The notes: generated from the sequence alone by a model not told the origin. Positions 1,767 through 63,937 are shown, counted from the first letter of the stretch. The stretch is DNA of 64,000 nucleotides from Candidatus Culexarchaeum nevadense (GCA_025060975.1 JANZKA010000003.1:1101-65100), one strand, 5' to 3'. Translations and numbers: made by a program.

Positions 1767-2513
1767 TTGGAAGATAGATTGAAACTACTTAAAAAATTTG
1801 GGTTAACAAGCTATCAAGCTAAAGCATACTTGACATTGATAATTATGGGTGAAGGAGATGCAAAAAGCATTAGCAGAACTTCAGGTATACCATACGCAAA
1901 AATCCACAGCACACTACTAAGCCTAATAAAAGATGGATGGATCATTACAGTAGAGGGGAGGCCGAGAAGGTACAAAGCTAAACCCCCAATTGAAATTGTA
2001 AATGAGAAGATTAATAGAGGAATAGAGGAAATGAAGATCCAAGGAGAGAGAATAATTAGAGAGTTGCAACCAATATATGAGAAAACTGGATTTGAAGAGA
2101 GATCCGAAGTCATGATACTTAGGGGTATAGGAATAATACTCGAGAGAACTGTGAATTCAATTAGGAAGGTAAATAAAACGTTGAGAATTGCATTAACTGG
2201 GAAGGTTTTCAAAGCCCACAAAGAACTCATAGACATACTGTTATCAAATTTGAAGAAGAAAGTTGATGTGAAAATACTATTGGATGAAGAACTTAAAGAC
2301 TACTTAGAAATTCTAAGCAAATATGGATTTAAAGGGGAGGTGGGAGGAGAGATGTTTGGAGGGGGGATAATAGTTGATGAAGATGAAGCAATAATCCTAC
2401 TTGGAGAAATACTTGGAACACCTATGGCTATATGGTCAAACAATAAAGTTCTAACAAACATAGCAAAAATATATTTTGAATACTTATGGGAAATGCGGAA
2501 ACCTAAGTCTTAG
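1767..2513 (+). CDS. TrmB-family transcriptional regulator
   Basis: N-terminal winged HTH (LTSYQAKAYLTLIIMGEGDAKSISRTSGIPYAKIHSTLLSLIKDGWI) typical of TrmB. 248 aa. Confidence 0.7.
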   Translation: MEDRLKLLKKFGLTSYQAKAYLTLIIMGEGDAKSISRTSGIPYAKIHSTLLSLIKDGWIITVEGRPRRYKAKPPIEIVNEKINRGIEEMKIQGERIIRELQPIYEKTGFEERSEVMILRGIGIILERTVNSIRKVNKTLRIALTGKVFKAHKELIDILLSNLKKKVDVKILLDEELKDYLEILSKYGFKGEVGGEMFGGGIIVDEDEAIILLGEILGTPMAIWSNNKVLTNIAKIYFEYLWEMRKPKS

Positions 2514-3261
2514 GTGAAACCTTAAATATTCCAGTGGAATCCACATTGAAGCTAACCCAACCAGTATGATGGGGAGCCCCCTTCATCTTTCTAACCCTAA
2601 ACTGTTTAACTAGGAAGCCTTGCTGCATGTACTGTGGATCATACCTTAAATCTATAATTCCATCAACCACATATTCAAGTATCTGCTCCAGATCATCATA
2701 AGGTTTAACTCCAAAATGAAATGTTCCGAAAACTGTTACCCCTCTCTCCTTAGCACACTCAGCCCTAATAATCTTAACAACTTCAAGAGCCACAGCAGAC
2801 TCACTTAAACTCATAAGTTCAGTTAGAGAATCTATGAACACAGCCCCCCTCCCCCTCATCCCAAGTCTATCCATCAAACCATTTAAAATATCAACCAACA
2901 AATAAAGCTCCCTAGGATTCTCCACATAAATCGTGTATTCAGGTATTGAAGCCTTATCTGGACTCATTCTAAATGAGTAGCAATCTATGAATCTCAAAAG
3001 ACCTTTACTAGTATAATCCAATAGATTCCAGTTAAATCCCTCAGCAGATTGCAGTATACTTAATGGAGTATCATCAAGACACATGAATATACATGGCTCA
3101 CCAGCTAAAAGCCTATAGTACATCAATTGAAGCATGAAAACGGATTTACCAGTTCCACCTTCACCCAAAATCATAATCATATTATTCCTAGGTATACCAT
3201 TCGGCAGAACTTCATCTAAAATAGCCAACCCAGTTTTAAACCTCTCAAACTTAATAGACAA
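2503..3261 (-). CDS. KaiC-like / RecA-superfamily ATPase (single KaiC domain)
   Basis: Walker A ILGEGGTGKS and a Walker B-like FIDSLTEL. About 250 aa, a typical archaeal KaiC/RadA-like paralogue. Its 3' end overlaps the convergent trmB-family gene by 11 nt. Confidence 0.7.
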   Translation of the reverse strand: MSIKFERFKTGLAILDEVLPNGIPRNNMIMILGEGGTGKSVFMLQLMYYRLLAGEPCIFMCLDDTPLSILQSAEGFNWNLLDYTSKGLLRFIDCYSFRMSPDKASIPEYTIYVENPRELYLLVDILNGLMDRLGMRGRGAVFIDSLTELMSLSESAVALEVVKIIRAECAKERGVTVFGTFHFGVKPYDDLEQILEYVVDGIIDLRYDPQYMQQGFLVKQFRVRKMKGAPHHTGWVSFNVDSTGIFKVSPKT

Positions 3262-11261: not shown

Positions 11262-12851
11262 ATGGAGAAACTATGGAGAAACATTACAATACTACTAATA
11301 ATGATAGTAATCTCCATCCCCACAACAACCCATACAATACAAGCCTACAATAAATTAAACACATCACAACACAATGGATTATACACATACATATGTGATG
11401 TAGACTACGATGGAGTAACAAAGGTAACAATAACATATGACTCACATATTACAAGTGGAAGATCATGGCTTCTAGTACCCAGAAACTTCACAAAATATAC
11501 ACTAACAGTAATTAGTGGAAGCATAGTGCATGGAGAAGTTAAGAGGGCATATACGAGGGAGGGGGAGGAATTCGCATTCTACGACAACTTCACATTCACA
11601 TATCTAGGAGATCCAAACTTCAAATTAAAATTGAATTACACAATGGATAATGGTGCATTGATAGTTGAACCCCGATGTTTCTTCTATTCACCACAAATAT
11701 ACTTCAACCCAGCAGATACTGGAATAGTATACGTATATCTACCAGAAGACAGCAAAGTTTTAGAAGGAAATGTGCAACCACCACCTACAAGCATAACATT
11801 TGAAGATAGAAAGCAAAAGATAACTATAAAGCTCCAAACAAATAGTGCAAGGATAGCCATAGAATACACTACAAGCATGCCTGGAAATCTAAAGACCTAC
11901 AGTAAGGGGATATTTGAAGTTATAACACCACATAGATATATGGATATAGCGGAAAACCTAATAAGAACATACGAAACATTCTACACTAATCTAACAAAGA
12001 TATTTGGTGTAAACCTCACAAACATAAGGATAATCTTCTTTGCACCAAGAATGACAGATCTTGGAACAGGGGGGTACATACCATTCAATGGAACACACCT
12101 AGGAAACATATACCTAAACCTACTATACACGAGAACTGTACAGGGATTCTGGGAGCAAATAGCACTCCATGAACTCATACATCACTTCACATGGGCTGCC
12201 GGAATATCACCAAACGTACTATGGTTACATGAAGGGTTAGCGGAATATCTTAGCATAAATTTGACAATGAACATGGGATGGACTGGAGCACTATCAAGAG
12301 TAAAGACCTTAGAGGATACCGCTAAACAATTGAGTGGCAACTATGGATTCGTGCAATGGTGGAATCCACTACAAACACCATCAAATATACTAAGCTACTA
12401 TGCAGCATCATACATGATAGTGAAAACTGTAGTTGAAGAGAATGGCGGAACAAGCTTCCTACAAAAACTGTTCAGGGAAATTAAGGGGACAACCATAAGT
12501 GACACAGACACACTAATACAATACATGAGCATGGCTGCTGGAAGAGATCTAACATTAAAATTCATCAGTTTCGGATTTAAAGTTGCAGGGGAATCAGAAA
12601 TTTATAAGATGATAGTAGAAGCAAAATATGCATTAATGAAGAAGAGGTGGGCTCAACCCTTCGCATTGATAGCCAATTGGCTATTAGACACTTCAATAAA
12701 CATGCTATCCTCGGGGAATATCATGCTGGCAACAATTATTGGATGGATAGGCATATTTATATCTATGCTAGCAGTGACATTAACTGTAGCATTATGGGGT
12801 GGAATACTAGTATTATTAACCATGAAGGTGCGTGGTGAAGATGAACTATAA
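11262..12851 (+). CDS. membrane-anchored putative zinc metallopeptidase (HExxH...EGxAxY, Peptidase_MA-like)
   Basis: N-terminal signal/TM segment, HELIHH plus a downstream HEGLAEY gluzincin-like motif, two C-terminal TM helices and many N-glycosylation sequons (NxT/S), typical of S-layer-associated crenarchaeal exoproteins. Confidence 0.5.
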   Translation: MEKLWRNITILLIMIVISIPTTTHTIQAYNKLNTSQHNGLYTYICDVDYDGVTKVTITYDSHITSGRSWLLVPRNFTKYTLTVISGSIVHGEVKRAYTREGEEFAFYDNFTFTYLGDPNFKLKLNYTMDNGALIVEPRCFFYSPQIYFNPADTGIVYVYLPEDSKVLEGNVQPPPTSITFEDRKQKITIKLQTNSARIAIEYTTSMPGNLKTYSKGIFEVITPHRYMDIAENLIRTYETFYTNLTKIFGVNLTNIRIIFFAPRMTDLGTGGYIPFNGTHLGNIYLNLLYTRTVQGFWEQIALHELIHHFTWAAGISPNVLWLHEGLAEYLSINLTMNMGWTGALSRVKTLEDTAKQLSGNYGFVQWWNPLQTPSNILSYYAASYMIVKTVVEENGGTSFLQKLFREIKGTTISDTDTLIQYMSMAAGRDLTLKFISFGFKVAGESEIYKMIVEAKYALMKKRWAQPFALIANWLLDTSINMLSSGNIMLATIIGWIGIFISMLAVTLTVALWGGILVLLTMKVRGEDEL

Positions 12852-23317: not shown

Positions 23318-23980
23318 TCAATCGAAGAATCTCCTAATAGCGTTCTTACCCCTCTGAATAGAGTTCTCAATTCTCTCCCTAATCATGCCTTTAGAACCAT
23401 CTATTCTAATCTTATAATTGCCCAAATTAGACTTCCAACGTATAAAAGCATTCTTAAATCCCTTAAATCTAAGGGTCAACCTCCCATAAACGCCAGTATA
23501 CCAAAATCTGAGTTCAATCATTGAAAGAGGGTAGGATTTAGAGTAAAGTATTGGTGGTGTGGAAAACTCGTCTGCAAGGAAAGCCTTAAAACGGGCTAGT
23601 GAATTTACAATGCCACCTAAAGCTCTGGTTAAATAATACTTTACCATTAGAATTTTTGAGGGCTTAACTTTCAGAATGTAGCTTGGTTTATCAATCATAC
23701 CATATATTTTTGTCAAACTCTCCTCGGGTCTGAAGCCAGGTCTATGTATACGCTTAATATTGTCATGAATAGCATTTTCAACCTTGTCGTGAAGTCCAGA
23801 CTTAACCTCCTCAATCCTACTATGAAGTTCAGCCCTAACGTAGGCAAACCGCTTAATACCGATTTTAGCCTTTAAAATAGATTGCCTATACCTTCTCTTA
23901 GTGGATTTAGCTTTTCTCTCCAGCTCTTCAATTTCAGTTTTAAAGCATTCTATTGAAGACATGGATGCCGCCATATACAC
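23318..23980 (-). CDS. hypothetical protein, possibly A-ATPase peripheral-stalk subunit (E-like)
   Basis: N-terminal coiled coil and C-terminal globular part. Immediately downstream of atpK on the same strand. No motif-level support. Confidence 0.25.
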   Translation of the reverse strand: MYMAASMSSIECFKTEIEELERKAKSTKRRYRQSILKAKIGIKRFAYVRAELHSRIEEVKSGLHDKVENAIHDNIKRIHRPGFRPEESLTKIYGMIDKPSYILKVKPSKILMVKYYLTRALGGIVNSLARFKAFLADEFSTPPILYSKSYPLSMIELRFWYTGVYGRLTLRFKGFKNAFIRWKSNLGNYKIRIDGSKGMIRERIENSIQRGKNAIRRFFD

Positions 23981-29346: not shown

Positions 29347-30630
29347 CTAACGATTAATGAAATCCCTCAAATCCATAGAAACCCCAAACATGTTTATCTT
29401 CCCATAAACACCATCAAATCCAGGATTTATAGAATACTTACCATACCTCAAACTCTTAATGTATGATGCTATGACAGGATTAGATGCCTTCGCAATATCA
29501 TCTATTGAAGCATCAAGTAAGACATTGAATTCAGAACCAAATTTTGATACTAAATTAGCATATAAACTCCAAACTTTACCACTATTAAGCTTTGAAATAT
29601 CATCTTCACTAATACCCATACTGAAAGCTATGATAGTCTGTAGAGGTAGAACTTTAATGAATGGTATAGCGTTCTCTGGTTTAAACCCCCTCGGTCTATC
29701 AGCAAGTTCCTCAACCCTATCTTCAACCCCCTTAGTAAGCTTCCTACCACAAACTGGACATATATAATTAAGCTTCCTAGCCTCTTCCGGAGATAATGGA
29801 CCAACATTACAATTCCTATGACCAGACCAATGATACTTCCCATAAGCTGGATCAACCTCAATGGTCATTAGGAAACGCTTTGCATCTCTAGACTTTATGG
29901 CATCTATAAGCTCTAAATACTCCATTCTATCTAAATTAAATAGGCATGCCTCCCTACCAAGTCTAAATGGGTATGGAGAGTGGCTATCTGAGAAGCTTAA
30001 AATTGAGAATCTATGTAGTTGGCTAACCCGCCAATTCATTTCAGGATCACTACTTAAACCAGTTTCAATAGCATATATCTTGTCAACCATATCACCATAG
30101 CAATCCTCAATTCTATCAACACCACTAAAAGATCCAAACAAACTCCACCAAGGAGTCCAAATGTGGGCTGGAAATATAAAGCATGACTGCTCAACACCCA
30201 AAACTAAATCCACAAGTTCAGATGGATGCATATTGAAGACTGGACGACCATTAGATTCCACATCACCATAACGTGACAGGACATCTGAAAGCTGCTCAGC
30301 AACTTCAAGACTTGGCATTAAAATGACGTGATGAACCCTCCTAGATTTACCATTAAATTCGAAGACAGTTCCAACTTCACATTCAACAACAAATAGCACT
30401 TCAGGGTTAAGCCTATATGCATAGAATCCTCCACCAACATGTATAAGGTCATCCTTCAACTCCCTAAGCCAACGTGGATTTAAACAATCACCAGTTCCGA
30501 GGATCTTCAACCCTTTAATAAGAGCGTATGATACGAGGGTGGGGATATTCATCTTTTCACTTGATCCGCCACTATACTTAGAGTGTATGTGGAGATCAGC
30601 GTAAACCTTCATTCCAATAAACACTTCCAA
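29347..30630 (-). CDS. PHP-domain nuclease, endonuclease Q (EndoQ / TIGR00375)-like, with C-terminal C4 Zn finger
   Basis: The N-terminal ADLHIHSKYSGG...KGLKILGTGDCLNP PHP metal-binding start and CPVCGRK...C near the C-terminus match the EndoQ architecture (~425 aa). 427 aa. The call rests on recalled family features, not a search. Confidence 0.5.
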   Translation of the reverse strand: MEVFIGMKVYADLHIHSKYSGGSSEKMNIPTLVSYALIKGLKILGTGDCLNPRWLRELKDDLIHVGGGFYAYRLNPEVLFVVECEVGTVFEFNGKSRRVHHVILMPSLEVAEQLSDVLSRYGDVESNGRPVFNMHPSELVDLVLGVEQSCFIFPAHIWTPWWSLFGSFSGVDRIEDCYGDMVDKIYAIETGLSSDPEMNWRVSQLHRFSILSFSDSHSPYPFRLGREACLFNLDRMEYLELIDAIKSRDAKRFLMTIEVDPAYGKYHWSGHRNCNVGPLSPEEARKLNYICPVCGRKLTKGVEDRVEELADRPRGFKPENAIPFIKVLPLQTIIAFSMGISEDDISKLNSGKVWSLYANLVSKFGSEFNVLLDASIDDIAKASNPVIASYIKSLRYGKYSINPGFDGVYGKINMFGVSMDLRDFINR

Positions 30631-37514: not shown

Positions 37515-39146
37515 ATGGAAACCCCTAATGATAATGGTGTAACCAAAATGCAAGAAATTGATGTGAAACACTGGGTAGATGTACTCGCAGAGCGTCTAGC
37601 ATCAAAAAACATAAAAGAACACGTAATAAATGGTGGAATGGCAGCTTCAGGAACAATACACATAGGTAAAACCCGTGGAGAAATATTCCTCCAAGCAGCA
37701 GTCGCCAATAGACTGAGAAAAATGAACAAAGAAGTAAAACATCTACTAGTAATATACACACAAGACCCATTAAAAGCGAAACCACCACTAATAACAAAGG
37801 AATTTGAAGAGAAATGGAGAGGTGTTAGAATACTTGATGTACCATGTCCAGTGGGATGTTGCGAAAACTGGGTTGAACACTGGATGACCCCATTCTACAA
37901 ATCATACAGGAAGTACGATCTAGGTGAAATAACTTTCGTAGAGACTTCAAAAATATATGAATCCAGAGAAATGATTGAAACCATAAAGACATACATAGAG
38001 AAGAGAGATGCTGTTAGAGAGATACTAAATAGATTTAGAGGACAAAAGTATGGAAAAGACTGGATACCATTCAAACCACTATGCCCAAAATGCAAAAACA
38101 TATCCACAACAAAAGCAGTATCAGTAGATCTTGAGGCAGAAGAGGCAGAATACGAATGTCCAAGATGTGGGAGTAATGGGGTTGTGAAATTAAATGAAGG
38201 GAAACTAGAATGGAGATTGGAATGGGCAGCTTTATGGAAAGTTCTAAATGTAACCTTCGAACCATACGGAAAAGATCATGCCGCTGCAGGAGGTAGCAGA
38301 GAAACATGCACAGCATTAGCAAAAGAGATACTTGGAATAGAACCACCAGAAGGATTCCCATACGAATGGGTATATTTAAATGGAGAAGCAATGTCAAGTT
38401 CTGGAGGCATATCCTTCGACTTCGCAGAATGGGATAAAGTTGCAGACCCACATGTGCTAAAGTACTGGTACTATGTATCAAAACCAATGACACACCTCGA
38501 ATTCTCAGTAAGCAAGATACCACAACTCTGCGAAGAATACGAGAAAGCTGAAAGAATATATTATGGATTAGAATCCTTGAAAGATAAGAAGATTGAGAAG
38601 ATAATTAAACGGAGCTATGAATTGACGCATAATGAAAAACCAAGCCCCGAAATGCCATTACAAATACCATACACATTTGCATTAGTACTTGTACAAGTAA
38701 CACCGAGTGGAGAAAAGCAAATTGAAGAAATAGTGAAGAGATTAATGAGAACTGGACACTTGAAAAGGTATCCAACAAGCGATCAAATGGAGCAAATAAG
38801 GATAGTTATGGAGCGAGCAAAATACTACATTGAAAAATATGCTCCAGAGAATCTTAAGATAAAAGTTCTAGATAAATTACCAGAAGATATTGTTGAAAGT
38901 ATAAACCCGGAAGAAAGGGAGTATCTTGCTAAGTTGGCAGATAGAATTTCAAGTAGAAGATTTACACCAAAAGAACTTGAAGCTGAAATATTAGAAATCG
39001 CAAGGGAGAAGGGGATCGATGTTAAAAGAGCATTTCAAGTAATATATAAGGTACTCATGGGAAAAGATAGTGGACCAAGACTTGCACCATTCATGTTAAG
39101 CTTAAATGAAGAATTCATAGTTAAGAGGCTAAAACTCCTAGCATGA
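37515..39146 (+). CDS. lysK: class I lysyl-tRNA synthetase
   Basis: HIGH-type motif (TIHIGK), KMSSS motif (AMSSSGG), Zn-binding CPKC...CPRC and ~530 aa length typical of LysRS-I. The start may be the internal Met (MQEIDVKHW). Confidence 0.8.
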   Translation: METPNDNGVTKMQEIDVKHWVDVLAERLASKNIKEHVINGGMAASGTIHIGKTRGEIFLQAAVANRLRKMNKEVKHLLVIYTQDPLKAKPPLITKEFEEKWRGVRILDVPCPVGCCENWVEHWMTPFYKSYRKYDLGEITFVETSKIYESREMIETIKTYIEKRDAVREILNRFRGQKYGKDWIPFKPLCPKCKNISTTKAVSVDLEAEEAEYECPRCGSNGVVKLNEGKLEWRLEWAALWKVLNVTFEPYGKDHAAAGGSRETCTALAKEILGIEPPEGFPYEWVYLNGEAMSSSGGISFDFAEWDKVADPHVLKYWYYVSKPMTHLEFSVSKIPQLCEEYEKAERIYYGLESLKDKKIEKIIKRSYELTHNEKPSPEMPLQIPYTFALVLVQVTPSGEKQIEEIVKRLMRTGHLKRYPTSDQMEQIRIVMERAKYYIEKYAPENLKIKVLDKLPEDIVESINPEEREYLAKLADRISSRRFTPKELEAEILEIAREKGIDVKRAFQVIYKVLMGKDSGPRLAPFMLSLNEEFIVKRLKLLA

Positions 39147-39826
39147 ATTGATTCATGAATACAAGTGTCAATTAAAGATGTAATTCTAACCCCCAGTGGA
39201 CTCATAAAATCCAATAGAATGGCAAATGGATAACCATTAACCTTAACATTCAACACAACACAACCATAAGAACATTCAAAGTAATCAGAGATATCTATCC
39301 ATGAAGAATTCACAAAAACATAGAAAGCCATCCGTGATGGATGAACTAAATGTCCATTCTCAATGAATAAGTATTTCAAAATAATCTGTGAAGAATTAAC
39401 CCTACAATCAAATACTTGAAGAGATAAATTGTAACTTAAACTACGTGTTAAAACTATATTGCCAACACGAATCTTAAATCTACAGAAACAATAGATATGG
39501 GAATCCGTCGAATTATACTTAAACTTCGAGATCGTTGAAAAGTGAAATTCATCAACACCAACTGTAGATCTATACTTGAAAAGAGCATAAGCCAAATTAC
39601 AAATAGAGGAGTTAATGAACATAGAATCTAAGGGGTAATGTCTAAGAATACCTTGAAAATACCTATCTAGAAGATTGTTCAATAAATGTAAATATAAGAA
39701 TTCAACCTCTGGAAAGTAAGTGTTTCCAAGAGTAAACATGCACACGTAAGCTCCATAAAATAGTATTACTACTGAAATTATCAAAGAGAATATTAAGAAA
39801 GCTTCACCCCTCAAAATCAACACCAA
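39035..39826 (-). CDS. pilin-like protein with putative class III (type IV prepilin) signal peptide
   Basis: N-terminus MVLILRG|EAFLIFSLIISVVILF: a charged residue and small residue before a hydrophobic helix. First gene of a four-gene same-strand cluster facing pibD. Confidence 0.4.
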   Translation of the reverse strand: MVLILRGEAFLIFSLIISVVILFYGAYVCMFTLGNTYFPEVEFLYLHLLNNLLDRYFQGILRHYPLDSMFINSSICNLAYALFKYRSTVGVDEFHFSTISKFKYNSTDSHIYCFCRFKIRVGNIVLTRSLSYNLSLQVFDCRVNSSQIILKYLFIENGHLVHPSRMAFYVFVNSSWIDISDYFECSYGCVVLNVKVNGYPFAILLDFMSPLGVRITSLIDTCIHESIHARSFSLLTMNSSFKLNMNGASLGPLSFPMSTLYIT

Positions 39827-40200
39827 GAAAATGAAATTATGAAGAAACCATTATTGGAATAGAAATAGTAGTAGAGGATTTTATTAAATGAAGCCCCCTC
39901 AGGATACTTAAATAAAACCACACCACTAAAACCATCAATAACTATGATTCCAAAATCCAATTTAAAAACAGATTTCAAAACATTATAAAGCTTCATGTAA
40001 TCCCTACACATAAAAATTTCATCTAAATAACCCGATTTATCTAGCGATAACATAAACGATAAAAACTTAACATCATTACTGATTTCACCACTTGATGGAG
40101 GAATATACTTTGAAATCAAACTATACGATAATAGTAGAGATGAGAGAAGAAGTATCACCGATAAGAATGCTTCTACGAAGAACATAGCTCCAACCCTCAA
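39817..40200 (-). CDS. pilin-like protein with putative class III signal peptide
   Basis: N-terminus MRVGA|MFFVEAFLSVILLL, sharing the EAF motif with the neighbouring gene. 127 aa. Confidence 0.4.
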   Translation of the reverse strand: MRVGAMFFVEAFLSVILLLSSLLLSYSLISKYIPPSSGEISNDVKFLSFMLSLDKSGYLDEIFMCRDYMKLYNVLKSVFKLDFGIIVIDGFSGVVLFKYPEGASFNKILYYYFYSNNGFFIISFSWC

Positions 40201-40203
40201 ACA

Positions 40204-40569
40204 CTACACCCCAGGAACTCCAGCAATATATATTCTGCCATTAAACTCGATGAATATGGGATAAGAAAGGTTCAGTAAACATTCAGCCCCATAGACATTA
40301 TACTCGAAAAGAACTATTGAGAACTTACAGTTTAAATCTTTAAAATCATAATCATATTGTAATCTAAACTCAACAGTGGAACTGTTTAAAGGTATCTTAG
40401 AATTTACAATGCTTACTTCAACCCCCCTAACAATAATAGATTTACAAGACTTGTCAATACACAAATAAACATAATCGCCAATTAAAGCTAGATTGTGAAG
40501 GGAGAAGAATAAAACCGAAATCAGAAGAACTATTGAAAACGAGAATTCAATGGTCATAGACATCTTCAA
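40204..40569 (-). CDS. pilin-like protein with putative class III signal peptide
   Basis: N-terminus MKMS|MTIEFSFSIVLLISVLF. The IEFSF motif is shared with the 40566..41009 product. 121 aa. Confidence 0.4.
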   Translation of the reverse strand: MKMSMTIEFSFSIVLLISVLFFSLHNLALIGDYVYLCIDKSCKSIIVRGVEVSIVNSKIPLNSSTVEFRLQYDYDFKDLNCKFSIVLFEYNVYGAECLLNLSYPIFIEFNGRIYIAGVPGV

Positions 40570-41009
40570 CCACCATAAATCAAAATCTCAACAATTCCAC
40601 CATAACATTTCAATTTCAAAATTATGATACCACCACAAATTTTCAAGTATGATTCTGAAGCCCTCACATAATGTGGCAATTTAATAGAATAAGCCGATTC
40701 ACCTTCACCAACAATTATCATCACACAGCCATCATCATTAACAAGCCTTAAAATGTATGGAGCTGAAGAAAGCCTATAAGGAAGAGTTATTTTCAACTCA
40801 ACTTCTTCAACCCCAGAATAACTTGCTAAACTAAGCAATCCATTAATAGATGAATATATCAATGCACAAATAAGCCTATCATGCTCAAATCTTAGCCTAT
40901 CAACACCACCATAAACTATGATCCCAAAATAGTATGCAACTGAAGAGCAAATGATCATTGAAATAAGCAGTAAAAATGAAAATTCAATACTCTTAAATTC
41001 AACCACCAT
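40566..41009 (-). CDS. pilin-like protein with putative class III signal peptide
   Basis: N-terminus MVVEFKS|IEFSFLLLISMII. Paralogous N-terminus to 40204..40569. 147 aa. Confidence 0.4.
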   Translation of the reverse strand: MVVEFKSIEFSFLLLISMIICSSVAYYFGIIVYGGVDRLRFEHDRLICALIYSSINGLLSLASYSGVEEVELKITLPYRLSSAPYILRLVNDDGCVMIIVGEGESAYSIKLPHYVRASESYLKICGGIIILKLKCYGGIVEILIYGG

Positions 41010-41056
41010 TTAAACAGATCAAAATAGTATTTAAAGGATAACACTTAATAATACAA

Positions 41057-41200
41057 TTATTCAATTGGAAATTCATGCCCACACTTTGGACATTTAGCAT
41101 AGCCACATGAACCAAAAACAGAATACCTACATCCACTACATGAAAACGTTCTAGAATAAGTTAAATCAAACTTATACCCACAATTTGGGCAAATAAGCAT
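41057..41200 (-). CDS. 47-aa Zn-ribbon protein (MLICPNCGYKFDLTYSRTFSCSGCRYSVFGSCGYAKCPKCGHEFPIE)
   Basis: Not in the ORF track (<60 aa). ATG at 41198-41200, TAA at 41057-41059, six Cys in CxxC pairs. Lies between the pilin-like cluster and pibD. Confidence 0.35.
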   Translation of the reverse strand: MLICPNCGYKFDLTYSRTFSCSGCRYSVFGSCGYAKCPKCGHEFPIE

Positions 41201-41341
41201 TTTAGAGCCACTAGACTTAAACTTCAAACTTCACACCAATAAGCAAAGTAAAGAAGCTTAAAAATAAATCTTTCACATATCACTTAAACATGATTACATG
41301 ATTAATATATGTAATACGAGAAATAGTAATTTGAGGATTAA

Positions 41342-42145
41342 ATGATTGATGGAGTATACTACGTTAGATACATAATTGCAGCAATAGGCTTAACCATATC
41401 ATCATGGCAGGATTGGAGAAGTAGAGAGATAAATGATCTAATATGGGTTTTCATGACAGCTTCCGGAATACCATTACTAATATATGAAGCTTATATTAGG
41501 GGATTTGGATTCTGGATTATACTCTCAGCTACATCAATACTCTTCTCCACAATAACTGGATTAACATTATACAAATTAGACTTCTTTGGAGGAGCAGATG
41601 CTAAAGCACTTATATCCCTAAGCCTACTTATACCAGTAATACCAGAGGAATTATCCATAAAACTTGGTACACATCCAATAACATCGATATCGATATTCAA
41701 CAACTCAATAATATTATCCACAACACCAGCAATTTATCTGCTGATAAGGAATACATGTAGAATGGCTACTGGTGAGAGTATATTTACTGGATTAGAAAGG
41801 GAAAGCATCATTAAAAAGATCTTGGCAATGATGACTGGATATAGGATAAAATTGAGTGAACTTAAAGACAAAAGATTCCTATACCCAATAGAAGAAGTGA
41901 AATTGGAAAATGGAGTTATTAAGAGGAAGTTGAGTGTAAGAATTGGAGCATCATTAGGTGAAGAAAGGTTAGAGGATATAATAAAACTTTACAATGATGG
42001 AGTATTGGAAGGAGAAATATGGGTAACACCAGCTCTACCACTAATAATATTCATAGCTATAGGCACACTCATAACTTTCACTTATGGAGATATTGTGATG
42101 AAATTCATGCGTAGTTTAGGCGATATACGATTCAACTTAAGATAA
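41342..42145 (+). CDS. pibD: type IV prepilin / preflagellin peptidase (PibD/FlaK, A24 family)
   Basis: Two catalytic Asp contexts: SWQDWRSREIND near TM1 and FFGGADAKAL (GxGD-like). Polytopic, 267 aa. Confidence 0.75.
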   Translation: MIDGVYYVRYIIAAIGLTISSWQDWRSREINDLIWVFMTASGIPLLIYEAYIRGFGFWIILSATSILFSTITGLTLYKLDFFGGADAKALISLSLLIPVIPEELSIKLGTHPITSISIFNNSIILSTTPAIYLLIRNTCRMATGESIFTGLERESIIKKILAMMTGYRIKLSELKDKRFLYPIEEVKLENGVIKRKLSVRIGASLGEERLEDIIKLYNDGVLEGEIWVTPALPLIIFIAIGTLITFTYGDIVMKFMRSLGDIRFNLR

Positions 42146-42625
42146 AAGCATTTTTATTGGATTCAAACCTAAGTCAATATACAATTTACATATGGAATCC
42201 AATAGCTCATCATGATCTATGAATCTAAAATAATGTAAATGACTTAGACATCTACAATCAGAACACCCAAAACCAATTATTGGAACACCATTAAGCATAC
42301 TAAGTAGAGCTGTAGCTATACTACACTCAAATCTAAAAGCACTATGGGATGCACATAAACTCTTCACATAAACCACATCTGCTGACAACAAGTAGTCTAT
42401 ATGCCACTTCAACCTTTTACCATACTTCCTTAAATGTCTTGAAATCCTATTATACAACCCAAACTTTCCACCAAGAGCTGAACCAGTATAAGTGTATAAT
42501 CCAGCTTTGAAGTGAATTAAACCCATACAGCCAACTCTAATGCTGATATCCCGTGAAACCATAATTATAAGTGTGTAAGTCCCACCATCAAGAGGTTTAA
42601 GTTCTTCTAACAACCCATGAAACAC
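42137..42625 (-). CDS. GIY-YIG domain protein (DUF123 / Uri-superfamily endonuclease-like)
   Basis: GIY-YIG-like core (TYTLIIMV...GLYTYTGSA) and conserved Arg/Glu downstream. 162 aa. Confidence 0.45.
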   Translation of the reverse strand: MFHGLLEELKPLDGGTYTLIIMVSRDISIRVGCMGLIHFKAGLYTYTGSALGGKFGLYNRISRHLRKYGKRLKWHIDYLLSADVVYVKSLCASHSAFRFECSIATALLSMLNGVPIIGFGCSDCRCLSHLHYFRFIDHDELLDSICKLYIDLGLNPIKMLLS

Positions 42626-54777: not shown

Positions 54778-55473
54778 ATGAATCACAAAATACTAAGCTC
54801 ATTCTGTGTGGTGACTAGATTGGAGGAATTAGTACTTGATGGAAAGATTTTGGAATTGGAAAAGTTAATTGAAGAATTAAGAGACCATACAAACTTTTTA
54901 AAATGGTGTTTTAAGAGGTTTCTAGTGCCATTAATGGGACTTATTATGATACTAAGCCTAATTTGGAACGTGAACCTTGTGGGGTTAATATTTTTCTCAA
55001 CCATAACGTTCTTTTATGGTGGGTTCCTGCCAGACATAGATATACTTGTGAGGAAGACCGATAATCCACTTGAAGAGTCATTATGGTATGAAAAATACAC
55101 GTATCTCTTCTTAGCTCCAATAGTATTATATTACACTTTGATTGGCAGAGCTAAACCAATATATTCGATTAAAAGTAAATGCTTCCATAACATTGAATCA
55201 GCATTAATTTACGGTTTGTTAATCTTTGTAGTTTCATGCATATTCTGGCATGAATTTTGGATGAGAATAACTCCATCCATAACTGGCTTCATAGGATATT
55301 TAACACACTTAATTGTAGATGGCTTCATAAATATATCCAGTGAAATGAATAAAAGGATATACTATTGGTTTAGTTTGAAATGTGGCACCATAATTACCGA
55401 TGACAATTTAATAATGGAATTCTATAGTTTCCCCATAGTATTCGAGAATTACATAATTCTCCAGCTTGTGTAG
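54778..55473 (+). CDS. membrane-bound metal-dependent hydrolase-like protein (YdjM/DUF457 family)
   Basis: GGFLPDIDIL and GYLTHLIVDGF His/Asp motifs within TM segments. Confidence 0.45.
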   Translation: MNHKILSSFCVVTRLEELVLDGKILELEKLIEELRDHTNFLKWCFKRFLVPLMGLIMILSLIWNVNLVGLIFFSTITFFYGGFLPDIDILVRKTDNPLEESLWYEKYTYLFLAPIVLYYTLIGRAKPIYSIKSKCFHNIESALIYGLLIFVVSCIFWHEFWMRITPSITGFIGYLTHLIVDGFINISSEMNKRIYYWFSLKCGTIITDDNLIMEFYSFPIVFENYIILQLV

Positions 55474-63085: not shown

Positions 63086-63937
63086 TCAAATGACATTAGC
63101 CAGACATCTAAACAGGTAATTCAATTGACTTAAAACTATAAGGGATATTATTGATGAACGCATCCTAATACCAATACTCCTTGCATTTGAAAGCCAATAC
63201 ACCAGCACTGCAGAGTAAACTTCAAGGGGGAGGTTAAATAAAACCCTACTCTGAAGCATACCATCAAGAAATGGATATACAATTGAAGATGTGATTATAG
63301 TAAATCTCAAAATATCATCACAAACCCCACGAGACGGAGTTAACAAAGCTATAAAAGCCGAAATTAACGTGAAGAAGTTAAGTTGAAAACCACCATACAA
63401 TATGAAACCAATGAAGAATGAGTTATACCAGTAATTGTATAGGTTGCCGAGATTTAAAGTCTTAATCAAACCATAGATAATCCAAAACTGACTTCCACCA
63501 GGGATTAGGAGGATTAAAGTTAGAGGGATTGATGGAGCTAACATTAAAACCACACTATGATATCCCCTTAAAACTCTAATAAACCCCCTAAACTTAAAAA
63601 TAGAGTATAAGAGGAATAAAGCTAAGGAAGCTGAAAACTGAATGTAAGTCCATGGATGAATTAATAAAGCCATATTATAAAGAGCTGCAGCCAATATCAA
63701 TACAACTCTAGATTTAGAATTAAAATACGTGAATAAAAGAGACAATGAGAAGAATATGACTATCAATGCAAAAATGTTAGCTAGAAAGTATGAATACATG
63801 TTAACTGTAATTTTAAATCCCATGGAAGTAAGCAAAGCAGAAATTGAAGCTAACCTCAAATCACCAAACCCCCTCCAAACAATCATGAAAATGGAGAAAA
63901 CCAACAATGGGTTAAGTATAATTGGAGCAAATGTCAC
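63086..63937 (-). CDS. polytopic membrane protein, function unknown
   Basis: ORF, about 8 TM helices. Confidence 0.35.
   Translation of the reverse strand: MTFAPIILNPLLVFSIFMIVWRGFGDLRLASISALLTSMGFKITVNMYSYFLANIFALIVIFFSLSLLFTYFNSKSRVVLILAAALYNMALLIHPWTYIQFSASLALFLLYSIFKFRGFIRVLRGYHSVVLMLAPSIPLTLILLIPGGSQFWIIYGLIKTLNLGNLYNYWYNSFFIGFILYGGFQLNFFTLISAFIALLTPSRGVCDDILRFTIITSSIVYPFLDGMLQSRVLFNLPLEVYSAVLVYWLSNARSIGIRMRSSIISLIVLSQLNYLFRCLANVI

What the first reader, a model, noticed from the sequence alone, without database searches (positions are those of the whole stretch)
39035..42145. Compact pilin-like gene cassette facing the prepilin peptidase PibD, with a hidden 47-aa Zn-ribbon gene
Four consecutive minus-strand genes (263, 127, 121 and 147 aa) all begin with a short charged N-terminus followed by a long hydrophobic helix. 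Two pairs share post-cleavage motifs, IEFSF and EAF(L). This is the hallmark of archaeal class III signal peptides processed by PibD. The PibD-type peptidase gene (41342..42145) is divergently adjacent. An unannotated 47-aa six-Cys Zn-ribbon ORF (41057..41200) lies between them. No assembly ATPase or platform gene is nearby, so this is not a canonical ups/aap/archaellum locus. It may encode minor pilins or pseudopilins, or an uncharacterised surface structure whose peptidase is co-encoded.
Basis: partly seen in the sequence, partly recalled or inferred. Interest (0 to 1): 0.55.

Follow-up and report, generated by a model that had tools for sequence, protein, structure and literature searches.

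The report
Pilin-like gene set beside archaeal prepilin peptidase
Next to the only prepilin peptidase gene of a hot-spring archaeon (Candidatus Culexarchaeum nevadense) sit a small zinc-ribbon gene and four lineage-specific genes for pilin-like membrane or surface proteins; these are probably accessory subunits of a type IV pilus whose motor genes lie beside the same cassette in marine relatives but elsewhere in this genome.

Summary
The ORFs are real and conserved, with corrections. The order on the minus strand is Zn-ribbon (41057..41227), A (40566..41009), B (40204..40563), C (39817..40200) and D (39035..39820). The Zn-ribbon protein is 56 aa with 7 Cys and a TTG start, and GenBank already annotates it. 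B is 119 aa. D is 261 aa, of which about 40 aa are a species-specific tail.

PibD (41342..42145) is a genuine A24 peptidase. The cassette lies divergent from PibD in about 9 Culexarchaeia lineages. In two Culexmicrobium species the PibD operon also carries a KaiC/FlaH-like ATPase, three canonical pilins, a T2SSE ATPase and two T2SSF genes. The cassette therefore belongs to a type IV pilus neighbourhood that has been pruned in Culexarchaeum.

D has a canonical class III motif ([KR][GA]|[EQ]) in all 10 sequences and is rich in glycosylation sequons. C is canonical in 5 of 9 lineages and keeps a conserved Glu. A has K-S, and B has essentially no leader, so the claim that all four carry the PibD hallmark is only half right.

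AlphaFold gives A a 60-residue N-terminal helix plus a beta domain, which is a pilin-like shape. No Pfam, NCBIfam or PDB match reaches significance. D has only 9 orthologue clusters among 1.84 billion representative proteins.

Verdict: a new, lineage-specific member of the known kind "archaeal pilin-like protein sets", of moderate interest.

The parts
41342..42145 (+). Archaeal A24 prepilin peptidase (PibD/FlaK type), 267 aa. It is probably the single such gene of this genome.
   Evidence: Pfam PF01478 and PF06847 both score above their cut-offs. D24 and the GGAD86 motif are invariant in three lineages. GenBank names it 'prepilin peptidase' (MCS7368477.1). The MAG's published table lists only one flaK, as gene 51 of its contig.
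41228..41341 (.). Divergent intergenic region between PibD and the Zn-ribbon gene. It holds conserved A/T-rich boxes that look like archaeal promoters for both directions.
   Evidence: TATATTAA and TGAAAGATTTAT are conserved in five lineages, as is a GGTG just upstream of the Zn-ribbon TTG start. Promoter function is inferred and was not tested.
41057..41227 (-). 56-aa zinc-ribbon protein with seven invariant Cys (CPxC...CxGC...C...CPxC). It is predicted to be cytoplasmic.
   Evidence: The TTG start is conserved, whereas the internal ATG is not. Identity across lineages is 84-87% and dN/dS is 0.07-0.19. Only generic Zn-ribbon Pfam hits below cut-off were found. It is present divergent from the PibD operon in every Culexarchaeia locus, including L020/L029, which lack A-D.
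41010..41056 (-). Spacer between the Zn-ribbon gene and gene A, with a conserved TATA-like box (TTTAAATA) 24-27 nt upstream of the start of A. This is a possible separate promoter for A-D.
   Evidence: Alignment of five lineages. Inferred only.
40566..41009 (-). Gene A, 147 aa. N-terminus MVVEFKS|IEFSF, then a long helix and a beta domain. It has a pilin-like architecture and a non-canonical leader (K at -2, S at -1).
   Evidence: Orthologues occur in about 9 lineages. AlphaFold2 gives pLDDT 83.7, helix 3-62 and strands 69-146. It fails the FlaFind-type pattern in 9 of 9 lineages. The best Pfam match is Class_IIIsignal at E = 0.49. Foldseek against the PDB found nothing with E <= 0.001.
40204..40563 (-). 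Gene B, 119 aa. N-terminus MSMTIEFSF, with no leader peptide. An acidic residue sits at position 6, which becomes +5 if the initiator Met is removed.
   Evidence: The ATG start is conserved. In L026 (MMDKG|FSMVID) and L019 (MSSG|ISTGID) a short leader is present, and Met1 of the short forms aligns with their +1 residue. dN/dS is 0.34.
39817..40200 (-). Gene C, 127 aa. N-terminus MRVGA|MFFVEAFL. It is a class III-type prepilin-like protein with a conserved Glu-Ala.
   Evidence: Orthologues read MSKG|QLLSFEAF, RG|QLHSLEAL, KRG|QLQVLES, RG|ISSIEAV and RRG|ELFSLEAF. E10 and A11 are invariant in the four-lineage alignment. The stop of C overlaps the start of D as TTGA.
39035..39820 (-). Gene D, 261 aa here, with a core of about 221 aa. 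N-terminus MILRG|EAFLIF, which is a canonical class III signal. It then has two helices, a three-stranded sheet and a C-terminal Ig/BACON-like beta sandwich rich in N-glycosylation sequons. The last 40 or so codons (about 39035..39160) are a species-specific read-through, antisense to the 3' end of lysS.
   Evidence: [KR][GA]|[EQ] is present in all 10 sequences. AlphaFold2 gives pLDDT 86.6. There are 4-8 sequons per protein, 2.6 per 100 aa against 0.29 in a cytosolic background. The D profile finds only 9 orthologue clusters plus 2 BACON-repeat proteins among 1.84e9 representatives. Best Foldseek matches are Ig domains and ArlG/ArlF/archaellin, all with E > 0.001.

Best explanation
A, B, C and D are four unrelated, Culexarchaeia-specific type IV pilin-like proteins. 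Each has one N-terminal membrane helix followed by an extracellular globular domain. Together they form an accessory or 'minor pilin' set of a TACK-type type IV pilus.

**Proposed mechanism (inferred).** All four insert in the membrane N-in/C-out.
- D, C in most lineages, and possibly A are trimmed by the adjacent PibD. PibD is the genome's only A24 peptidase. The cut falls just before the helix, after R-G in D, after G/A in C and after K-S in A.
- B, and A in some lineages, is made with an N-terminus that already corresponds to the processed form.
- The four proteins then act together at the membrane or at the end of a filament. D would be outermost, carrying a glycosylated Ig/BACON-like domain suited to adhesion.
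- Assembly is driven by a FlaI/FlaJ-type ATPase and platform. In Culexmicrobium these are encoded next door. In Culexarchaeum they are encoded elsewhere in the genome.

**The Zn-ribbon protein.** This 56-aa protein is a separate, much more conserved cytoplasmic partner of the PibD/pilus operon. It is not a structural member of the cassette. It probably has its own promoter.

**Shown.**
- The genes, their conservation and their order.
- The peptidase identity.
- The signal-peptide motifs.
- The predicted folds.
- The linkage to a complete pilus operon in sister lineages.

**Inferred.**
- Cleavage.
- Filament or tip association.
- Adhesion.
For: 1. **Genomic linkage.** The Zn-A-B-C-D cassette is divergent from the PibD operon in every locus that carries D and extends far enough: the window, L005, L010, L019, L022, L023, L024, L025 and L026.
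   - In Culexmicrobium profundum and C. cathedralense that operon reads KaiC-like ATPase, pilin, PibD, pilin, pilin, T2SSE, T2SSF, T2SSF, with TackOD1 next to it.
   - Its three small proteins have textbook class III signals and hit UpsA, UpsB, BasA and arch_flag_Nterm models.
2. **Signal peptides.** D matches [KRDE][GA][ALIFQMVED][ILMVTAS] in 9 of 10 sequences. C matches at the expected site in 5 of 9.
   - The leaders are 3-11 aa, and PibD is reported to cut leaders as short as 3 aa (PMC10117864).
   - RAQ and KGQ are the processing sites listed for the M. maripaludis Epd pilins (PMC4371748).
   - The same review states that G, A or S at -1 and a charged -2 residue are what archaeal peptidases need. 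A's K-S fits this.
3. **Folds.** The model of A is one 60-residue helix plus a beta domain. The model of D is an N-terminal helix, a helical layer and a beta sandwich. Its weak structural neighbours include ArlG, ArlF and an archaellin.
4. **Extracellular location of D.** D has a 9-fold excess of N-x-S/T sequons.
5. **The genes are under purifying selection where the ATPase genes have left the locus.** dN/dS is 0.12-0.34.
6. **The genome has partners for the cassette.** The same MAG has 3 FlaI, 2 FlaJ and 1 FlaK (Kohtz et al. 2022, supplement).
7. **Precedent.** Stand-alone pilin sets and modular exchange between ATPase/TadC modules and pilin sets are described for archaea (PMC4858521).
Against: - No cassette protein reaches the cut-off of any pilin, archaellin, ArlF/G or class III signal family. 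The best is Class_IIIsignal at E = 0.49 for A and DUF7288 at E = 0.021 for one C orthologue.
- Foldseek found no PDB match with E <= 0.001 for A or D.
- A and B lack the G/A at -1. B also lacks any basic residue before the helix, so at least one member is probably not a PibD substrate.
- The window's own C has no charged -2 residue.
- The whole neighbourhood is syntenic across Culexarchaeia: NADH dehydrogenase, proS, S26e, trmY, lysS, DUF123, DUF2286, DUF483, polB. Adjacency to PibD could therefore be inherited gene order rather than functional coupling.
- One lineage (L020/L029) keeps the full pilus operon and the Zn-ribbon gene but has no A-D at this place.
- The MSAs behind the AlphaFold models are shallow, at 12-14 sequences.
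Confidence: 0.55

Rival explanations
1. A-D are ordinary N-terminally anchored (type II / signal-anchor) surface proteins, for example adhesins or envelope-associated proteins. They are not assembled into or onto a type IV filament. Their position next to PibD is inherited synteny. At most, C and D are trimmed by PibD, in the way Sulfolobus sugar-binding proteins are.
For: - The cassette proteins hit no pilin family at a significant level.
- There is no significant structural match.
- A and B lack a canonical cleavage motif.
- The entire 20-kb neighbourhood is collinear in all Culexarchaeia loci.
- L020/L029 has the pilus operon without A-D.
- In Sulfolobales and Haloferax volcanii PibD has a broad substrate range that includes substrate-binding proteins (PMC4858521).
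Against: - All four share the architecture of one N-terminal helix followed by a small domain.
- The four genes are tightly coupled translationally, with 2-nt and 3-nt gaps and a TTGA overlap.
- Conserved acidic residues sit at the head of the helix, as in Epd-type and bacterial pilins.
- A's 60-residue continuous helix is longer than a plain membrane anchor needs to be.
- The cassette never occurs away from the PibD operon in the loci recovered.
Confidence: 0.25
2. A-D are functional analogues of the archaellum stator or anchor proteins ArlF/ArlG (FlaF/FlaG). On this view they are uncleaved monotopic membrane proteins with beta-sandwich ectodomains that anchor the pilus machinery to the cell envelope, rather than being part of the fibre.
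For: - Among the best Foldseek matches of D are ArlG (5tuh, TM-score normalised to the target 0.51-0.52) and the ArlF-ArlG complex (5tug).
- A and B look uncleavable.
- The Culexmicrobium operon has a FlaH-like KaiC ATPase but no recognisable ArlF, ArlG or ArlX.
Against: - The Foldseek E-values are 0.01-0.03, and the same list is headed by unrelated Ig domains.
- No cassette protein hits the NCBIfam ArlF or ArlG models. Only the control pilins do, and weakly.
- C and D carry conserved cleavage motifs that ArlF and ArlG are not known to need.
- C. nevadense has no archaellin gene.
Confidence: 0.12
3. The cassette in Culexarchaeum is a decaying remnant of the pilus locus after loss of the ATPase and platform genes. 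It no longer functions.
For: - The T2SSE, T2SSF, KaiC-like and canonical pilin genes that flank PibD in Culexmicrobium are missing between PibD and DUF123 in the window, L005, L010, L022, L024 and L025.
- D has lost its normal stop codon in C. nevadense.
- A has lost its ATG in two lineages.
Against: - All five ORFs are intact in every lineage and in four independent assemblies of C. nevadense.
- dN/dS is 0.12-0.34 at dS 0.4-0.9, comparable to the neighbouring DUF123 gene at 0.24.
- Signal motifs and sequon density are maintained.
- FlaI/FlaJ pairs exist elsewhere in the genome.
Confidence: 0.04

Closest known systems
Epd pili of Methanococcus maripaludis: major pilin EpdE with minor pilins EpdA-D (DUF361 / Pfam Class_IIIsignal, processed by EppA)
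   Same: - Several small, mutually dissimilar pilin-like proteins are encoded together.
- The processing sites RAQ and KGQ (PMC4371748) are the same tripeptides found in D and C of the marine Culexarchaeia.
- An acidic residue sits at +5 or +6.
- A and B carry an x-x-[ST]-x-E-F motif like the mature Q-x-S-x-E-F.
   Different: - Pfam Class_IIIsignal is not met (best E = 0.49).
- The peptidase here is the short PibD/FlaK form with an Arc_PepC_II domain, not the 9-TM EppA.
- A and B lack the [KR]G-Q leader.
- The globular domains have no detectable similarity.
Bacterial minor pilin / minor pseudopilin operons (GspH-I-J-K of type II secretion; FimU-PilV-W-X of type IVa pili)
   Same: - A compact operon of four different pilin-like genes, encoded apart from the assembly ATPase and the major pilin.
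- A conserved Glu near the start of the helix.
- One larger member with an extra domain (D here, GspK/PilX-like there).
- This comparison rests on established knowledge of those systems, not on a test run here.
   Different: - There is no sequence or significant structural similarity.
- No evidence yet exists for a tip or priming complex in archaea.
- Two members appear to be leaderless.
Crenarchaeal pilins and pilin-like proteins UpsA/UpsB and BasA/B/C (Sulfolobales)
   Same: - PibD-dependent small proteins with short leaders.
- The canonical pilins in the Culexmicrobium operon next to the cassette hit these NCBIfam models (UpsA E = 4.5e-9). This shows what a standard pilin of this lineage looks like.
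   Different: The 33 cassette proteins scanned give no hit to these models even at E <= 1.
ArlF/ArlG (FlaF/FlaG) archaellum stator proteins
   Same: An N-terminal membrane helix plus a beta-sandwich ectodomain. They are weak Foldseek neighbours of D.
   Different: - The similarity is not significant.
- C and D have cleavage motifs.
- No archaellin gene is listed for this genome.
Zn-binding cytoplasmic proteins of archaeal T4P loci (e.g. arCOG06883 double Zn-ribbon proteins in thaumarchaeal loci; Makarova et al. 2016, PMC4858521)
   Same: A small Cys-rich, Zn-ribbon-type protein encoded at a type IV pilus locus of a TACK archaeon. The 56-aa protein here gives weak hits to double-Zn-ribbon Pfam models.
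   Different: - Membership in arCOG06883 could not be tested.
- The 7-Cys family was found only in Culexarchaeia loci.
- Zn-ribbon ORFs next to other TACK T2SSE genes are a different, generic C4 type.

Membership tests
Peptidase A24, archaeal PibD/FlaK type (gene 41342..42145) | Pfam Peptidase_A24 and Arc_PepC_II domains above the gathering score | tested here: met
   PF01478 scores 36.6 bits against a cut-off of 26.5. PF06847 scores 74.3 bits against a cut-off of 29.9.
Peptidase A24, archaeal PibD/FlaK type (gene 41342..42145) | Two catalytic aspartates, the second in a GxHyD motif | tested here: met
   D24 and G83-G-A-D86 are invariant in three lineages. The motif is as described in PMC4371748.
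Peptidase A24, archaeal PibD/FlaK type (gene 41342..42145) | NCBIfam equivalog FlaK_Arch or EppA above cut-off | tested here: not met
   FlaK_Arch scores 84.4 bits against a cut-off of 330. EppA scores 15.4 bits against a cut-off of 450. Membership therefore holds at superfamily level only.
Archaeal class III signal peptide / type IV pilin-like proteins (FlaFind-type) | [KRDE][GA][ALIFQMVED][ILMVTAS] within the first residues, directly before the hydrophobic stretch. This is my approximation of the FlaFind rule. | tested here: inconclusive
   - D: 9 of 10 strict matches, and 10 of 10 with [KR][GA].
- C: 5 of 9 at the expected site. The window's C matches only through an alternative E-A|F-L site.
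- A: 0 of 9, with K/R then S/T instead.
- B: 1 of 9.
The feature is met for D, partly met for C, and not met for A and B.
Archaeal class III signal peptide / type IV pilin-like proteins (FlaFind-type) | A single N-terminal hydrophobic helix that continues as the long alpha-1 helix of a 'lollipop' pilin fold | tested here: met
   Each protein has one dominant hydrophobic segment at residues 6-32. The AlphaFold model of A has helix 3-62 followed by a beta domain. In the model of D the helix is 2-28, followed by a low-confidence break at 28-34.
Archaeal class III signal peptide / type IV pilin-like proteins (FlaFind-type) | Sequence match to a curated pilin or archaellin model (Pfam Pilin_N, Arch_flagellin, Class_IIIsignal; NCBIfam UpsA/B, BasA-C, arch_flag_Nterm) | tested here: not met
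   None of the 33 cassette proteins reaches any of these models' cut-offs. The best is Class_IIIsignal at E = 0.49. All recorded hits to these models belong to the three control pilins of L019.
Archaeal class III signal peptide / type IV pilin-like proteins (FlaFind-type) | Actual cleavage by the prepilin peptidase and incorporation into a filament | not testable with these tools
   This needs N-terminal proteomics or an in vitro PibD assay.
Epd-type (DUF361) pilins | +1 Gln and +5 Glu after a [KR][GA] cleavage site | tested here: inconclusive
   - +1 Q is present in C of L019, L022 and L023, and in D of L019, L022, L023, L026 and L027.
- In the window, D has +1 E and C has +1 A or M.
- Glu is at +5 or +6 in C and absent in the Q-type D proteins.
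- The Pfam model is not met.
ArlF/ArlG stator proteins | Match to the NCBIfam ArlF/ArlG models, or a significant structural match | tested here: not met
   No cassette member hits these models. Foldseek gives E = 0.011-0.03 for D and nothing for A.
BACON / Ig-like carbohydrate-binding repeat (C-terminal domain of D) | Match to Pfam BACON, or reciprocal profile similarity | tested here: inconclusive
   - D proteins do not hit Pfam BACON.
- The D profile (positions 138-217) hits two BACON-repeat proteins at E = 4.4e-26 and 4.7e-5.
- Each repeat contributes only -5 to +9 bits, always in the same register. The near-identical repeats inflate the total score.
- AlphaFold predicts a beta sandwich for this region.

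The most novel reading that the evidence does not exclude
The cassette may encode an archaeal counterpart of the bacterial minor-pilin priming or tip complex. Two of its four members, B everywhere and A in several lineages, would be 'leaderless pilins'. These would be translated directly in the register of a mature type IV pilin and would need no prepilin peptidase.
- After Met removal B reads S-x-[ST]-I-E-F. A reads M-K-S-V-E-[FY].
- Both match the mature Q-x-S-x-E-F motif, with the acidic residue at +5.
- In B, Met1 of the short forms aligns with the +1 residue of the forms that still have an M-M-D-K-G or M-S-S-G leader.
- In A, the leaderless form is reached through ATT start codons that co-vary with loss of the upstream ATG.
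Probability: 0.15. Interest if true: 0.7.

Novelty: new member of a known kind. Interest (0 to 1): 0.38.

Why it matters
- Archaeal type IV pili are assembled from fast-evolving, lineage-specific pilin sets. Almost nothing is known about how assembly is primed or what sits at the tip.
- This locus gives four new protein families plus a conserved Zn-ribbon partner. All are currently annotated as 'hypothetical'. They are restricted to the uncultured class Culexarchaeia and physically tied to its only prepilin peptidase.
- The two locus states form a natural comparison. Marine Culexmicrobium keeps the full pilus operon beside the cassette, while hot-spring Culexarchaeum keeps only PibD and the cassette. 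This shows that pilin sets and ATPase/platform modules evolve as separate modules.
- If the leaderless members are real, they would show that the mature pilin N-terminus can be made without a peptidase.
- For annotation, A-D and the Zn-ribbon gene can be labelled as 'type IV pilus-associated, pilin-like' with appropriate caution.

Tried and rejected
1. **Pfam and NCBIfam on the window proteins and on 33 orthologues.** No significant family was found.
2. **The search for homologous proteins with A.** Only genus-level relatives were returned.
3. **A concatenated A+B+C+D profile in the search for homologous proteins.** This is a method failure, not a biological result.
4. **Genome-contig scan with a PibD alignment.** The derived patterns were too narrow, and only 4 loci came back, one of them useful.
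5. **Profile-profile comparison of A/B, C/D and A/C.** No paralogy was found beyond the N-terminal helix (probabilities 0.3-1.4%). The shared IEFSF and EAFL motifs are therefore helix-head motifs. They are not evidence that the globular domains are duplicates.
6. **Foldseek of both AlphaFold models against the PDB.** Nothing had E <= 0.001.
7. **Local HMM search with all five families in 79 metagenomic loci around related T2SSE genes.** A-D were absent from all non-Culexarchaeia loci. Weak 'Zn' hits there are a different, generic C4 ribbon and were rejected.
8. **Assigning YNP T2SSE/FlaJ loci (L040, L100) to Culexarchaeum by GC content.** This was not conclusive and was dropped.
9. **The sigma-70 promoter/terminator scanner.** It was not used because it does not apply to archaea.
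I worked around this by registering orthologues through the listing of cluster members.

Full report
**Source and gene models.**
- The window comes from the metagenome-assembled genome of Candidatus Culexarchaeum nevadense (archaeon GBS-70-058). Exact matches of genes C, A, Zn and PibD are GenBank MCS7368473.1, MCS7368475.1, MCS7368476.1 and MCS7368477.1.
- I compared the locus with C. yellowstonense (L005-L008) and a third lineage whose PibD is 54% identical (L009-L014). This refines three gene models.
  - The Zn-ribbon gene starts at a conserved TTG and encodes 56 aa (41057..41227). The ATG behind the 47-aa reading is ATA in both other lineages. The gene is annotated in GenBank and has seven invariant Cys.
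  - Gene B starts at a conserved ATG at 40563 and encodes 119 aa.
  - Gene D starts at the TTG at 39820, which overlaps the stop of C as TTGA. In C. nevadense alone, D reads through the position where every orthologue stops. It adds about 40 residues, antisense to the 3' end of lysS. The same ORF is seen in four independent assemblies.
- The genes are packed tightly. The gap is 47 nt between Zn and A, 2 nt between A and B, and 3 nt between B and C. C and D overlap by 4 nt.
- A conserved TATA-like TTTAAATA lies 24-27 nt upstream of gene A, inside the Zn-A spacer. Further conserved boxes lie in the PibD-Zn spacer. Zn and A-D may therefore be separate transcription units. This is inferred only.

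**The genes are real and selected.**
- Identities between the window and the third lineage are 87% for Zn, 45% for A, 34% for B, 43% for C, 40% for D and 54% for PibD.
- Between C. nevadense and C. yellowstonense, dN/dS is 0.19 (Zn), 0.12 (A), 0.34 (B), 0.17 (C), 0.28 (D) and 0.13 (PibD). For comparison it is 0.06 for LysRS and 0.24 for the neighbouring DUF123 gene.
- The cassette evolves fast but is under purifying selection.

**The peptidase.**
- The protein from 41342..42145 passes both Pfam models of archaeal A24 peptidases.
- It keeps D24 and the GGAD86 motif.
- It does not reach the NCBIfam FlaK or EppA equivalog cut-offs.
- The published gene table of the MAG lists a single flaK, three flaI, two flaJ, one flaG-like gene and no flaB (Kohtz et al. 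2022, PMC9723716, supplement).
- No T2SSE or T2SSF gene lies anywhere in the 64-kb window.

**Comparative context is the key result.** I took PibD homologues and D homologues as entry points.
- In Ca. Culexmicrobium profundum (L019) and Ca. C. cathedralense (L023) the same cassette Zn-A-B-C-D is divergently adjacent to a complete pilus operon. That operon reads KaiC/FlaH-like ATPase, pilin, PibD, pilin, pilin, T2SSE, T2SSF, T2SSF. A TackOD1 gene follows it.
- The three small proteins in that operon have textbook class III signals, such as MQNGKNSKG|VSPVIAVLLL and MKNTKG|ISPVV. They hit NCBIfam UpsA (E = 4.5e-9), UpsB, BasA and arch_flag_Nterm, and Pfam Pilin_N.
- In Culexarchaeum and four further lineages (L010, L022, L024, L025) PibD abuts DUF123 directly. 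Only PibD and the cassette remain.
- One lineage (L020/L029) keeps the pilus operon and the Zn-ribbon gene but has no A-D at this place. The Zn-ribbon gene therefore tracks the PibD operon rather than A-D.
- A caveat applies. The whole 20-kb neighbourhood is collinear across the class, so adjacency alone is weak evidence of function.

**Distribution.**
- A profile of D was searched against 1.84 billion representative proteins. It found only nine D-type clusters, all from syntenic Culexarchaeia loci where context could be read, plus two BACON-repeat giants.
- HMMs of all five families were searched in 79 metagenomic loci around related T2SSE genes. A-D were found nowhere outside Culexarchaeia.
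- Profile-profile comparison finds no paralogy among A, B, C and D beyond the helix.

**Signal peptides (with sequences).**
- **D.** MILRG|EAF in the window. Elsewhere MRG|E, MKG|E, SRA|QIF, IRA|QAY, CRA|QVF, DRA|QFF and FKG|QAF. All 10 have [KR][GA] before the helix, and 9 of 10 pass my FlaFind-type pattern.
- **C.** MRVGA|MFFVEAF in the window, which has no charged -2 residue. Elsewhere MSKG|QLLSFEAF, DRG|QLHSLEAL, KRG|QLQVLES, RRG|ELFSLEAF and VRG|ISSIEAV. Five of 9 are canonical, and Glu is conserved at +5 or +6.
- **A.** [KR][ST] before [IV][EV][FY]S in nearly all lineages. It never has G or A at -1.
- **B.** M-S-x-[ST]-I-E-F in Culexarchaeaceae, and MSSELDF or MSADFDV in two marine lineages. 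Two other marine lineages read MMDKG|FSMVID and MSSG|ISTGID. Met1 of the short forms aligns with the +1 residue of these long forms.
- **Literature context.**
  - G, A or S at -1 plus a charged -2 residue are required by archaeal peptidases.
  - Only some archaeal pilins have an acidic +5 residue.
  - The Epd pilins are cut at RAQ or KGQ (PMC4371748).
  - PibD cuts leaders as short as 3 aa (PMC10117864).
- **Summary.** D is a strong predicted PibD substrate. C is a good one in most lineages. A is possible. B is unlikely.
- **Gene A start codons.** The upstream ATG and a downstream TTT (window, L005, L025) co-vary with ATA and ATT (L010, L024). L010 has a stop codon between the two positions. 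L022 has only an ATT after a GGTGGG. This suggests ATT initiation and an N-terminus M-K-S-V-E in those lineages.

**Structures.**
- AlphaFold2 with a 14-sequence alignment gives D a confident model (pLDDT 86.6, pTM 0.73). It has helix 2-28, a low-confidence linker, helices 37-59 and 66-87, three long strands, and a C-terminal beta sandwich at 145-218.
- Foldseek against the PDB gives no match with E <= 0.001. The list is headed by Ig domains and includes ArlG (5tuh), ArlF-ArlG (5tug) and an archaellin (9eq7).
- A, with 12 sequences, gives pLDDT 83.7. It has one continuous helix at 3-62 followed by a beta domain at 69-146, which is the overall shape of a type IV pilin. No significant PDB neighbour was found.
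- D carries 4-8 N-x-S/T sequons in every lineage, or 2.6 per 100 aa against 0.29 in ten cytosolic proteins of the window. This points to an extracellular, probably glycosylated domain.
- The match of D's C-terminal domain to BACON repeats is consistent in register but only -5 to +9 bits per repeat. I treat it as weak support for an Ig/BACON-like adhesion-type domain.

**Interpretation.**
- The best reading is that A-D form a Culexarchaeia-specific accessory pilin-like set of a TACK-type type IV pilus. PibD processes D, C and perhaps A. The assembly ATPase and platform are encoded next door in Culexmicrobium and elsewhere in Culexarchaeum.
- This fits the modular picture of archaeal T4P, in which pilin sets and ATPase/TadC modules recombine and many pilin genes stand alone (PMC4858521).
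- The Zn-ribbon protein is a conserved cytoplasmic companion of the PibD operon. That paper notes metal-binding and double-Zn-ribbon proteins at other archaeal T4P loci. Membership of any such arCOG could not be tested.
- Rivals, weighed in the dedicated fields, are plain signal-anchored surface proteins that are only syntenic with PibD, an ArlF/ArlG-like anchoring complex, and a decaying remnant.
- No membership in any curated pilin family is claimed, because those tests were not met. The claim is that the proteins are pilin-like, not that they belong to a named family.

**Novelty and score.**
- These are four new, unannotated families and one Zn-ribbon family, confined to one uncultured class. 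They are of a kind already known to be diverse, namely lineage-specific archaeal pilin-like sets.
- The possibly leaderless members and the pruned-locus comparison add some interest.
- Nothing here overturns current understanding.
- Interest is 0.38.

Noticed in passing
window 39035..39160 (also L001-L004): In C. nevadense gene D has lost the stop codon that all orthologues use. It runs about 40 codons further, antisense into the 3' end of lysS. The convergent overlap with lysS is 112 nt (39035..39146). The same ORF is present in four independent assemblies, so this is not an assembly error.
   Followed up: partly
window 40995..41009; L010 10199..10222; L024 5816..5840; L022 7693..7716: The start of gene A shows co-variation. 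It reads ATG...TTT in three lineages and ATA...ATT in two others, one of which has an in-frame TAA between the two positions. L022 has only an ATT after a GGTGGG Shine-Dalgarno-like box. This suggests ATT initiation codons in these archaea.
   Followed up: partly
L020 7557..7730 and L029 4871..5038: The 7-Cys Zn-ribbon gene is retained divergent from the KaiC-pilin-PibD-T2SSE operon in a Culexarchaeia lineage. In that lineage genes A-D, and lysS, are absent from this position.
   Followed up: partly
L019 7752..14051; L023 1098..7363; L029 5112..11190: This is a complete TACK-type pilus operon with a split T2SSF (two genes of about 280-293 aa) and a FlaH-like KaiC ATPase with DUF7125. PibD sits between the pilin genes, and a TackOD1 gene is adjacent. 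It is the ancestral-looking state of the locus.
   Followed up: partly
window 42137..42145: The convergent DUF123 gene (42137..42625, minus strand) overlaps the 3' end of PibD by 9 nt. The same arrangement is seen in the PibD-only lineages whose coordinates were read (L005, L010, L022, L025); in L024 the two genes abut without overlap.
   Followed up: no
window 1767..3261: A TrmB-family regulator (1767..2513, plus strand) and a KaiC-like ATPase (2503..3261, minus strand) form a convergent, slightly overlapping pair. They are unrelated in position to the PibD locus.
   Followed up: no
window 11262..12851, 29347..30630, 63086..63937, 23318..23980, 54778..55473: These are long ORFs (220-529 aa) with no Pfam family at E <= 1e-5.
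   Followed up: no
proteins P0154 (2123 aa) and P0158 (1020 aa): These giant BACON-repeat proteins are the only non-orthologous hits of the D profile. Each repeat aligns to D positions 138-194 in the same register, at only -5 to +9 bits per repeat.
   Followed up: partly
cluster 3: The 90%-identity cluster of the 56-aa Zn-ribbon protein lists a 391-aa actinobacterial acetyl-CoA acetyltransferase (P0013) as a member. This is evidently a clustering artefact of the collection.
   Followed up: no
L100 7137..13542 (Ga0272441_10000032, GC 0.30): This Yellowstone contig carries a response regulator, a 592-aa T2SSE, a 589-aa FlaJ-like protein, and two large proteins (479 and 309 aa) with class III-like N-termini (…CEG|VSEIIGTILLL and …DIG|VVGIVTAILLV). 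The organism could not be assigned.
   Followed up: no
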